This document shows positions 34,399 to 34,581 of a stretch of DNA of 64,000 bases, piece after piece. Each line of letters begins with the position of its first letter. Position 1 is the first letter of the stretch. Position numbers and translations under genes: made by a program. The notes beneath the pieces were generated by a model, which did no database searches, was not told the DNA's origin, and worked only from the letters and a program-made list of their open reading frames with translations. The DNA is from a virus (lineage: Duplodnaviria; Heunggongvirae; Uroviricota; Caudoviricetes), in the IMG/VR virus record IMGVR_UViG_2718218305_000006. The stretch is one strand, 5' to 3'.

Positions 34399-34581
34399 GC
34401 CAGCGACTGACCTGAAAAAGAAGACGCTGGCTAAAAGGCCTTATATGTTTGTAGAGACTTATTTTTCACAGACAGCAATGATGCCTGTCAATATATTATC
34501 AATATGCGGATTGTTTCAGTTACAGATGCTTTATTAAGGAAAAAAACAGCCAGCACTGACTTTCGGTGGAGAGGTGCTGGC
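34399..34581 (+). repeat. Two paralogous stem-loop modules (34399-34431 and 34549-34581) in the nanS-S intergenic region
   Basis: GCCAGCG...CGCTGGC and GCCAGCAC...GTGCTGGC hairpins, each preceded by A7 and followed by (C/T)AAAAGG and a similar 60-80 bp tail. Confidence 0.4.

What the first reader, a model, noticed from the sequence alone, without database searches (positions are those of the whole stretch)
34399..34581. Duplicated stem-loop module between nanS-p and the holin gene
Two paralogous elements about 150 bp apart share the layout A7 - GCCAGC(G/AC) - 17-19 nt loop - complementary arm - (C/T)AAAAGG, followed by similar sequence. The loops are too long and the T-tracts absent for classic intrinsic terminators. 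They could be processing sites, protein-binding sites or small RNA genes upstream of the lysis cassette.
Basis: seen in the sequence. Interest (0 to 1): 0.35.

Follow-up and report, generated by a model that had tools for sequence, protein, structure and literature searches.

The report
Known prophage sRNA PasA, tandem terminators
The two repeated stem-loops are the transcription terminators, read on the opposite strand, of the already described prophage small RNA PasA and of a diverged tandem copy next to it, so the feature is real but essentially known.

Summary
Two related hairpins lie 150 bp apart at 34398-34432 and 34548-34582, each inside a roughly 150-bp diverged direct repeat.

The interpretation missed the strand. 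The "A7" before each hairpin is a T7 tract after it on the minus strand, so both are classic intrinsic terminators of minus-strand transcripts.

The window is prophage Sp11 of E. coli O157:H7 Sakai. The locus differs at 2 of 326 positions from the pasA locus of EPEC E2348/69. The 85 nt of PasA are 100% identical, and the published Northern probe matches 25/25.

PasA is a Northern-validated, Hfq-dependent sRNA (Pearl Mizrahi 2021; Hfq-CRAC peaks EcOnc51/52 of Tree 2014). It has an 85-nt major form ending at hairpin 2 and a 236-nt minor form ending at hairpin 1. It sits between the nanS-p esterase and the holin, antisense to the late operon.

Across 24 variants from IMG/VR prophages the stem is kept, with compensatory changes (C-G/U-A, G-C/A-U).

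One point looks undescribed. The downstream unit ("M1") is a diverged paralogue of pasA with its own TTGACA box. It carries Hfq-bound 3' ends and its own RIL-seq partners. PasC looks like a recombinant of the two units.

Low interest; already known.

The parts
34540..34624 (-). pasA, 85-nt major form of the Hfq-dependent prophage sRNA PasA (5' end at 34624, 3' end at the last U, 34540)
   Evidence: Mapped from E2348/69 NC_011601.1 743499->743415 (Table S6 of PMC8550237) through alignment A2 (window = record - 708875). All 85 nt are identical. The Northern probe GCCAGCACTGACTTTCGGTGGAGAG equals window 34550-34574 on the + strand.
34540..34582 (-). Element 2 of the finding: PasA Rho-independent terminator. 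Stem AGCCAGCAC/GUGCUGGCU (34582-34574 with 34556-34548), then G and U7 (34546-34540). The 5' arm carries the published PasA seed GCCAGCACCU.
   Evidence: The phage 434 record annotates a '-' terminator here. RIL-seq RNA2 ends at 743414-743416. Seed from Fig. S5 text.
34392..34432 (-). Element 1 of the finding: second Rho-independent terminator. Stem AGCCAGCG/CGCUGGCU (34432-34425 with 34405-34398) plus U7 (34398-34392), 1 nt from the nanS-p stop codon. It ends the 236-nt PasA isoform and/or the M1 transcript.
   Evidence: Phage 434 annotation. Minor PasA 3' end at 743264. Hfq RIL-seq RNA2 fragments at 743265/6/7-743294/7, which equal window 34390-34422.
34392..34458 (-). 'M1' unit: diverged tandem paralogue of pasA, a putative sRNA of about 67 nt (body GUCUCUACAAACAUAUAAGGCCUUUU plus terminator). 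The 5' end is inferred by analogy with PasA.
   Evidence: Alignments A1 and A3. Sakai Hfq-CRAC cluster EcOnc52 (1181998-1182075, minus strand) covers exactly this unit in Sp4, where IS629 has replaced the pasA unit. It has its own RIL-seq partners and a 10-nt perfect complement to the pfkA 5'UTR.
34389..34624 (-). 236-nt minor (read-through) PasA isoform spanning both units
   Evidence: Table S6 of PMC8550237: 743499->743264, mapped through A2.
34630..34659 (-). Promoter-like box of pasA: TTGACA (34659-34654), then ...TGT CAGAAA. The mapped 5' end lies 35 nt after the first T of TTGACA. Inferred, not shown.
   Evidence: The geometry is worked out from the sequence. The sigma-70 consensus scan did not call it.
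34462..34491 (-). Equivalent promoter-like box of the M1 unit: TTGACA (34491-34486), then ...TGT GAAAAA. Inferred.
   Evidence: It is retained with about 20 bp of upstream sequence in rearranged M1-only loci.
32540..34390 (+). Context: nanS-p / SASA-family sialate O-acetylesterase gene (616 aa), convergent with pasA
   Evidence: RefSeq annotation of the identical E2348/69 and phage genes.
34358..34368 (+). CUGAUGCUGGA in the 3' end of nanS-p: the published PasA target motif and RIL-seq partner site
   Evidence: Supplementary motif table of PMC8550237, row E2348C_0688_743175_743305_+ GAUAGAAAGU CUGAUGCUGGA GAUAAAUGCA. The same 31 nt are in the window.
34838..35044 (+). Context: class II holin (pinholin) gene S, 68 aa

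Best explanation
The two stem-loops are Rho-independent terminators of minus-strand transcripts from the pasA small-RNA locus of a lambdoid prophage (Sakai Sp11).

Element 2 (34540-34582) ends the 85-nt PasA. PasA is an Hfq-dependent, trans-acting sRNA transcribed antisense to the late operon, between the nanS-p esterase gene and the holin gene. Its terminator hairpin and U-tail give it a stable 3' end and an Hfq proximal-face binding site. The 5' arm of the same hairpin (GCCAGCACCU) is the published seed, which pairs with CUG(A/U)UGCUGG motifs in mRNAs.

Element 1 (34392-34432) is the terminator of a diverged tandem copy of the same unit ('M1'). It stops read-through transcripts (the 236-nt PasA isoform) one base before they would enter nanS-p in antisense. 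It most likely also ends a separate RNA of about 67 nt started from M1's own TTGACA box.

Shown here or in the cited papers: sequence identity to PasA, strand, terminator anatomy, conserved and covarying stem, published 3' ends and Hfq binding. Inferred: the promoters, M1 as an independent gene, and M1's pairing region.
For: (1) The window is 100% identical to Sakai prophage Sp11 over 24 kb.

(2) Positions 34375-34700 differ at 2 of 326 positions from E2348/69 PP2, and PasA itself is 85/85 identical.

(3) Table S6 of PMC8550237 places PasA on the minus strand at 743499->743415 (85 nt, major) or 743264 (236 nt, minor), between E2348C_0688 and _0689. Its probe matches window 34550-34574 exactly. 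The paper reports Northern validation and Hfq-dependent stability.

(4) On the minus strand both hairpins are followed by T7. Phage 434's record annotates both as '-' terminators.

(5) RIL-seq RNA2 fragments end at 743414-6 and at 743265-7, that is, at the two U-tracts.

(6) Tree 2014 Hfq-CRAC clusters cover the PasA-2 3' half in Sp12 (EcOnc51) and the M1 unit in Sp4 (EcOnc52).

(7) In 24 distinct variants from 120 IMG/VR prophage loci, 93% of stem cells pair. Pair 50-76 is G-C in 14 and A-U in 10. Pair 49-77 is C-G, U-A or U-G. No shuffle of 500 reached the observed covariation score, and slid registers drop to 22-54% paired.

(8) All variants with an intact terminator keep at least 6 T after the stem.
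Against: No canonical sigma-70 -10 hexamer precedes the mapped PasA 5' end. Zhu et al. 2026 state that the 5' end may come from cleavage of a longer transcript, so the promoter assignment is uncertain.

Expression was shown in EPEC E2348/69, and by Hfq-CRAC in Sakai with multi-copy sequences. No EcOnc entry is assigned to the Sp11 copy itself.

Covariation is limited to the two to four inner pairs; the six outer pairs never vary.

G.U versus A.C counts do not by themselves decide the strand. PasC-type U.G favours the minus strand, while the PasA-type C.A at the innermost pair would be G.U on the + strand.
Confidence: 0.93

Rival explanations
1. Element 1 is only a fail-safe terminator. The M1 unit is a decayed duplicate with no promoter of its own. 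All RNA ending at 34392 is the 3' part of read-through PasA (the 236-nt isoform), and the hairpin merely protects nanS-p from antisense transcription.
For: The authors who mapped it describe a 236-nt minor isoform sharing PasA's 5' end. M1's 3' end carries about 6% of the Hfq RIL-seq reads of PasA's (about 12,700 against about 198,000), which fits read-through. The Sp4 and Sp12 M1 sequences are identical, so the 'M1-only' EcOnc52 reads could come from the tandem Sp12 locus. No consensus -10 is present.
Against: M1 keeps a perfect TTGACA and the same TGT-N-A-N-AAA box at the same distance from its body as PasA. M1 is retained, with about 20 bp upstream of the box, in at least three independent rearrangements that removed the pasA unit. 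The EcOnc52 cluster begins 2-3 nt from the 5' end predicted by analogy. M1's 3' region has partners not listed for PasA (rpoS 5' region 92 chimeras, pfkA 5'UTR, escD). The pfkA 5'UTR carries a perfect 10-nt complement (CUGACCUGAA) to M1-specific loop sequence (chance about 0.008 for one target).
Confidence: 0.42
2. The hairpins act on the + strand, in the Q-antiterminated late mRNA between nanS-p and S, as RNase processing sites, 3'-end stabilisers of nanS-p mRNA or protein-binding sites.
For: The hairpins also fold on the + strand (-15.5 and -20.8 kcal/mol, z -3.1 and -3.8). Element 1 begins 8 nt after the nanS-p stop codon. Compensatory changes are strand-neutral.
Against: No U-tract follows either hairpin on the + strand. 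The A7/T7 tract, the shared upstream box and the published RNA ends, Northern probe and Hfq data all belong to the minus strand. The repeat unit (box, body, hairpin, T7) has the layout of a minus-strand gene. No evidence of + strand ends was found.
Confidence: 0.05
3. Element 1 is a bidirectional terminator that also ends nanS-p transcription coming from the left.
For: It sits immediately after the stop codon. A-tract, stem and T-tract hairpins can terminate in both directions.
Against: On the + strand the stem is followed by AAAAGGCC, not by a T-run, and the scan reports no + strand terminator there. The first + strand terminator is at 34756-34792, just before S.
Confidence: 0.07
4. Chance similarity or a generic dispersed repeat (REP/BIME-like).
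For: None beyond the small size of the arms.
Against: Chance expectation is 0.00 for either pattern in the window. The same layout is found in 691 of 5426 complete E. coli genomes, always in this prophage context. It occurs only twice in this 64-kb window.
Confidence: 0.01

Closest known systems
PasA (pathogenicity-associated sRNA A) of EPEC E2348/69 prophage PP2; Pearl Mizrahi et al. 2021, Sci Adv (PMC8550237)
   Same: 85/85 nt identical. Same strand relation, same neighbours (SASA esterase, class II holin), same terminator, same seed, same second terminator 150 bp downstream (236-nt isoform). PasD2/STnc100 lies on the other side of the esterase gene, as in the window (32231-32403).
   Different: Nothing of substance. 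The host prophage is Sakai Sp11 rather than E2348/69 PP2, and there are 2 substitutions outside the 85-nt RNA.
PasC of E2348/69 PP5 (same paper; Zhu, Shabalina and Storz 2026 preprint)
   Same: Element 1 shares PasC's terminator arms (AGCCAGCG/CGCUGGCU), the preceding UUUUAG, and its position with the U-tract abutting the esterase stop codon. The PasC probe CGCTGGCTAAAA... matches the element 1 3' side.
   Different: PasC is a single-unit locus whose promoter box and 5' body are PasA-like. The M1 body (GUCUCUACAAACAUAUAAGG) and loop differ. PasC looks like a recombinant between the two units of a tandem locus (inference).
EcOnc51 / EcOnc52, Hfq-CRAC candidate sRNAs of EHEC Sakai (Tree et al. 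2014, PMC4104026)
   Same: EcOnc51 (Sp12) covers the 3' half and terminator of the PasA-2 variant. EcOnc52 (Sp4) covers the M1 unit. Both were flagged with predicted Rho-independent terminators.
   Different: They lie in other prophages of the same genome. No EcOnc entry was assigned to the Sp11 copy. Neither was characterised further.
Tandem duplicated Hfq sRNAs such as OmrA/OmrB (E. coli) and PrrF1/PrrF2 (Pseudomonas); from general knowledge and as cited by Zhu et al.
   Same: Two adjacent, same-strand, homologous units. Each has a promoter-like box, a divergent body and a similar terminator. A read-through product spans both, comparable to PrrH over PrrF1-PrrF2.
   Different: Independent transcription of the second unit is not shown here. 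The units are far more diverged in their bodies. The locus is on a prophage, antisense to the late operon.
AgvB / AsxR anti-sRNAs (Rfam RF02702/RF02703) of lambdoid prophages
   Same: Prophage-encoded, Hfq-binding, terminator-ended sRNAs in the late-region 'moron' neighbourhood.
   Different: No Rfam hit to either family in the window. Different position (3' of PR'/stx, not esterase-holin), size and sequence.

Membership tests
PasA sRNA (Pearl Mizrahi 2021) | Sequence of the 85-nt RNA (NC_011601.1 743499->743415, minus strand) | tested here: met
   Alignment A2: all 85 positions identical, with 2 differences in the 326-nt locus, both outside the RNA.
PasA sRNA (Pearl Mizrahi 2021) | Match to the validated Northern probe GCCAGCACTGACTTTCGGTGGAGAG | tested here: met
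   25/25 at window 34550-34574 on the + strand, so the RNA is on the minus strand.
PasA sRNA (Pearl Mizrahi 2021) | Synteny: intergenic, between sialate esterase and holin/lysozyme, opposite strand (> < >) | tested here: met
   ORFs 32540-34390 (+) and 34838-35044 (+). Same annotation in E2348/69 and as described by Zhu et al..
PasA sRNA (Pearl Mizrahi 2021) | 3' stem-loop followed by poly-U (intrinsic terminator and Hfq site) | tested here: met
PasA sRNA (Pearl Mizrahi 2021) | Expression and Hfq-dependent stability | not testable with these tools
   Reported for EPEC by Northern, RNA-seq and RIL-seq. Hfq-CRAC peaks on homologous Sakai copies.
Rho-independent (intrinsic) terminator | G+C-rich stem immediately followed by a run of at least 5-6 U on the transcribed strand | tested here: met
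   Met on the minus strand: 8-9 bp stems with 5-6 G-C pairs plus U7 at both elements. Not met on the + strand, where the stems are followed by AAAAGG / CAAAAGG.
Rho-independent (intrinsic) terminator | Stem maintained in homologues by compensatory change | tested here: met
   Pairs 49-77 (CG 21, UA 2, UG 1) and 50-76 (GC 14, AU 10); 93.3% of cells paired against 22-54% in slid registers. RNAalifold finds the same helix. The sequences are related, so the counts are not independent events.
Rho-independent (intrinsic) terminator | Transcript 3' ends at the U-tract in vivo | not testable with these tools
   Published coordinates are 743415 and 743264. RIL-seq fragment ends are at 743414-6 and 743265-7.
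Any curated Rfam 15 family (including AgvB RF02702, AsxR RF02703, Esr41, STnc100) | Covariance-model hit at or near gathering score in 34250-34900 | tested here: not met
   Only chance-level hits (E 2-9, 13-18 bits against thresholds of 39-108). PasA has no Rfam family, which explains why genome annotations show nothing here.
Tandem sRNA gene pair (OmrA/B-, PrrF1/2-like) | Second unit homologous to the first | tested here: met
   71% identity over 169 columns. Shared box, pre-terminator CCUUUU(G)AGCCAGC, terminator and U7.
Tandem sRNA gene pair (OmrA/B-, PrrF1/2-like) | Second unit transcribed from its own promoter | tested here: inconclusive
   Perfect -35 and a TG-type box but a weak -10. 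M1-only loci exist and EcOnc52 maps to one, but the reads are not unique to it.

The most novel reading that the evidence does not exclude
The pasA locus is really a two-gene tandem array. The downstream unit M1 (34392-34458, minus strand) would be an independent, so far unnamed Hfq-binding sRNA. It would have its own promoter and its own pairing region in the terminator 5' arm and loop (CCAGCGUCUUC / UUCAGGUCAG), with targets such as the rpoS 5' region and the pfkA 5'UTR. PasC and other single-unit variants would arise by recombination between the two units. This would contradict the published statement that pasA copies never arise by tandem duplication.
Probability: 0.45. Interest if true: 0.3.

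Novelty: already known. Interest (0 to 1): 0.15.

Why it matters
As found, it matters little. It re-identifies PasA, a validated prophage sRNA that is missing from Rfam and from genome annotation, which is why the locus looked unexplained.

There are two small gains. First, it is a clear reminder that an 'A-tract before a hairpin' is a terminator on the other strand. Second, pasA is accompanied by a diverged tandem paralogue with its own Hfq-bound 3' end and partners. Current surveys miss this unit: BLAST with word size 28 and at least 75% coverage does not find it, and Zhu et al. report the closest pasA pair as 22 kb apart.

If M1 is an independent regulator, counts of Pas-family sRNAs in EHEC and EPEC are underestimates. 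The PasA/PasC relationship would then have a simple recombinational explanation.

Tried and rejected
(1) Rfam. The gathering-threshold search of the whole window and the permissive search of 34250-34900 found no family for this locus.

(2) My first IMG/VR scans used the wrong spacer (N11 instead of N10). They gave only chance hits, then none, and were discarded. The corrected pattern worked.

(3) The GTDB species-representative scan gave 17 hits, of which only Escherichia albertii (tandem, 168 bp apart) is real. The rest match the number expected by chance. There is therefore no evidence outside Escherichia, in line with Zhu et al.

(4) The sigma-70 consensus scan found no canonical promoter for PasA. 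It did find CTGAAA-18-TATATT at 34519-34490 (minus strand), upstream of M1's TTGACA. I could not decide between this and the TTGACA box.

(5) Strand assignment from G.U wobbles gave mixed signals. The strand call rests on the T-tracts and the published data.

(6) Whole-length RNAduplex of M1 or PasA against the rpoS region was no better than shuffles. Only the 16-nt sliding-window analysis gave local matches. The escD match is weak.

(7) I looked for an EcOnc entry at the Sp11 copy in Tree 2014 and found none. No main-text paper mentions EcOnc51 or EcOnc52.

(8) Small ORFs (38 aa on the minus strand at 34488-34604; 30 aa on the + strand at 34445-34537) were rejected as genes. The 38-aa ORF runs through the terminator hairpin. 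The variable 5' bodies of the PasA variants show no sign of a conserved reading frame, but I did not test this formally.

(9) L149, an apparently natural M1-only locus, turned out to be a rearranged region (a small minus-strand ORF and inverted lysis genes next to M1). It does not show an ancestral M1-only architecture.

Full report

- Element 1 has A7 at 34392-34398, arms AGCCAGCG (34398-34405) and CGCTGGCT (34425-34432), then AAAAGG.
- Element 2 has A7 at 34540-34546, arms AGCCAGCAC (34548-34556) and GTGCTGGCT (34574-34582), then CAAAAGG.
- They are 150 bp apart.
- The similarity runs on for about 100 bp to the right of each hairpin (71% column identity). It includes a shared box that reads TTGACA-N10-CTGTCTGTNANAAA on the minus strand (34462-34491 and 34630-34659).
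- Both this box and the pattern AGCCAG-N14-30-CTGGCT-N0-2-T6 occur only here in the 64-kb window, against 0.00 expected in shuffles.
- Each hairpin folds better than shuffled sequence on either strand (z -3.1 to -3.8).
- The long "loops" hold further pairs, leaving 4-nt apical loops.

**The strand.** They are absent only on the + strand. Read on the minus strand, each unit is box, body, CCUUUU(G)AGCCAGC... hairpin, then T7. That is the layout of a small gene ending in a Rho-independent terminator.

- The terminator scan reports a terminator-like site at the first element on the minus strand, using an alternative short stem and the same T-run.
- The curated GenBank record of phage 434, 99.3% identical here, annotates both positions as minus-strand terminators. 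It also annotates a third, + strand terminator just before the holin gene.

**Identity.** The window is prophage Sp11 of E. coli O157:H7 Sakai: 24 kb at 100% identity, Sakai coordinate = 2221112 - window coordinate, opposite strand.

The literature search led to PasA. Table S6 of Pearl Mizrahi et al. 2021 (PMC8550237) places PasA of EPEC E2348/69 on the minus strand of NC_011601.1. It runs from 743499 to 743415 (85 nt, major form) or to 743264 (236 nt, minor form), between E2348C_0688 (esterase) and E2348C_0689 (holin).

- The Northern probe GCCAGCACTGACTTTCGGTGGAGAG is an exact match to window 34550-34574.
- I fetched that locus and aligned it. It differs from the window at 2 of 326 positions, both outside the RNA.
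- PasA therefore maps to window 34624->34540 on the minus strand, ending at the last U of element 2's U-tract.
- The 236-nt form ends at about 34389-34392, at element 1's U-tract, 1-3 nt from the nanS-p stop codon.
- The paper reports Northern validation and Hfq-dependent stability. It also reports a seed, GCCAGCACCU, that lies in the 5' arm of the terminator.
- One listed target motif, CUGAUGCUGGA in the 3' end of the esterase gene, is present at window 34358-34368.
- RIL-seq fragment coordinates end at 743414-6 and at 743265-7, the two U-tracts.
- There is no Rfam family for this RNA, which is why nothing is annotated here in RefSeq.

**Homologues and pairing.** The locus occurs in 691 of 5426 complete E. 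coli genomes, with a median of 5 places per genome. Among GTDB species representatives it occurs only in E. albertii.

A scan of IMG/VR with the shared box returned 120 prophage loci.

- About 67 carry the tandem arrangement: a PasA-type unit, then M1, then the esterase stop codon.
- 24 carry a single PasC-type unit.
- 9 carry a single unit with a GCCAGUAC/GUACUGGC stem.

From these I took 24 distinct RNA variants.

- The helix is kept in 93.3% of cells. The six outer pairs never vary.
- Pair 49-77 is C-G (21), U-A (2) or U-G (1). Pair 50-76 is G-C (14) or A-U (10).
- No shuffle of 500 reached the observed covariation score, and slid registers give only 22-54% pairing.
- RNAalifold predicts the same helix.
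- Every variant with an intact terminator keeps at least six T after the stem.
- G.U wobbles do not settle the strand by themselves. The T-tracts and the experimental data do.

**The second unit.** Zhu, Shabalina and Storz (bioRxiv 2026) surveyed Pas sRNAs. They state that pasA copies are never closer than 22 kb and are not products of tandem duplication. Their search settings would not detect M1.

M1 nevertheless shares several features with pasA:

- a perfect TTGACA;
- the TGT-N-A-N-AAA box at the same distance;
- the pre-terminator CCUUUUAG;
- the stem and the U7.

PasC of E2348/69 PP5 has the PasA-type box and 5' body. From UUUUAGCCAGCG onward it has the M1-type terminator, abutting the esterase stop codon. 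One M1 variant carries the PasC-type loop. The simplest reading (inference) is recombination between the two units of a tandem locus.

Is M1 expressed on its own? The evidence for:

- Its 3' end is Hfq-bound. It has partners not listed for PasA: the rpoS translation-initiation region (92 chimeras in three libraries), the pfkA 5'UTR and escD.
- The pfkA 5'UTR contains CUGACCUGAA, a perfect complement to the M1-specific loop sequence UUCAGGUCAG (about 0.008 by chance for one target).
- The rpoS fragment can pair GAAGAUGCGG with CCAGCGUCUUC (-14.3 kcal/mol).
- In Sakai Sp4 an IS629 has replaced the pasA unit, leaving M1 with about 20 bp upstream of its box. Tree et al.'s Hfq-CRAC cluster EcOnc52 covers exactly the M1 body and terminator there.
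- Other rearranged loci also break within a few bases of the same point and keep M1.

The evidence against:

- The Sp4 and Sp12 M1 copies are identical, so EcOnc52 reads could come from read-through in the tandem Sp12 locus.
- M1's Hfq signal is about 6% of PasA's.
- Neither unit has a good -10 hexamer.

I rate independent expression at roughly even odds.

**Mechanism.** PasA is made from the prophage, antisense to the late operon and convergent with nanS-p. Its hairpin and U-tail terminate transcription, protect the 3' end and bind the Hfq proximal face. This last point is established knowledge for Hfq sRNAs, cited in Tree 2014. The 5' arm of the hairpin serves as the seed (published).

Some polymerases read through into M1 and stop at element 1, giving the 236-nt form. 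This keeps antisense transcription out of nanS-p. M1 may in addition be a separate regulator.

On the + strand the hairpins lack U-tracts. The first + strand terminator is at 34756-34792, just before S. I found nothing to support + strand processing or protein binding. These are not excluded as secondary effects.

**Verdict.** The feature is real and non-random, but it is the already described PasA locus. Novelty: already known. The only apparently undescribed aspect is the tandem paralogy (M1) and the recombinant nature of PasC. Interest is low.

Noticed in passing
window 32231-32403 (+), and 32463-32520 (+): Rfam STnc100 hit (104.7 bits) just upstream of nanS-p, the position of PasD2 in E2348/69; Zhu et al. 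argue that PasD and STnc100 are related. Tree 2014's EcOnc04 (Sp11, about 222 nt by Northern) maps to 32463-32520, between that hit and the nanS-p start codon. The esterase gene is therefore flanked by sRNA genes on both sides.
   Followed up: partly
window 34756-34792 (+): Strong + strand intrinsic terminator (11-bp stem, GGCCGTCAGTGGGTGACACTGGCGGC + TTTTTTGTTTT) about 45 bp upstream of the holin start codon. It is also annotated in phage 434. It would stop any non-antiterminated transcription from reaching the lysis genes in a lysogen.
   Followed up: partly
window 34358-34368 (+): The 3' end of nanS-p carries CUGAUGCUGGA, the published PasA target motif. The esterase mRNAs of PP2 and PP5 are among PasA's strongest RIL-seq partners (668 chimeras for E2348C_1246). 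The sRNA may therefore regulate its convergent neighbour in trans.
   Followed up: partly
window 34472-34490 and 34635-34658 (minus strand): The TTGACA box and the CTGTC that follows it form short inverted repeats (GACAG-N9-CTGTC in M1; TGACA-N14-TGTCA in the pasA unit). These could be an operator or a hairpin in a precursor RNA.
   Followed up: no
window 26741-26915 (+): hok/sok-type antitoxin RNA (Rfam sok, 113.5 bits) inside the prophage.
   Followed up: no
window 19480-19531 (-): DicF sRNA (Rfam, 75 bits, full length) in the prophage early region.
   Followed up: no
window 31209-31281 and 31385-31458 (+): Two tRNA genes upstream of the STnc100/esterase region, at the usual lambdoid 'moron' site. 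There are no stx genes between them and nanS-p, although the pasA region is 100% identical to that of Stx1a-converting phages.
   Followed up: no
L261 (Sakai Sp4, NC_002695.2 1182009-1182130) and L157, L161, L204: IS elements (IS629 and others) have repeatedly inserted in or next to the pasA unit. In the Sp4 (L261), L157 and L161 cases M1 is left with about 20 bp of upstream sequence; in L204 the insertion lies in the pasA terminator T-run, further upstream. The Sp4/L157 and L161 junctions, together with the non-IS junction in L149, cluster within about 5 bp.
   Followed up: partly
L263 (E2348/69 rpoS, NC_011601.1 3101474-3102467): RefSeq marks rpoS of E2348/69 as frameshifted. Yet its 5' region is the top RIL-seq partner of the M1 3' region.
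   Followed up: no
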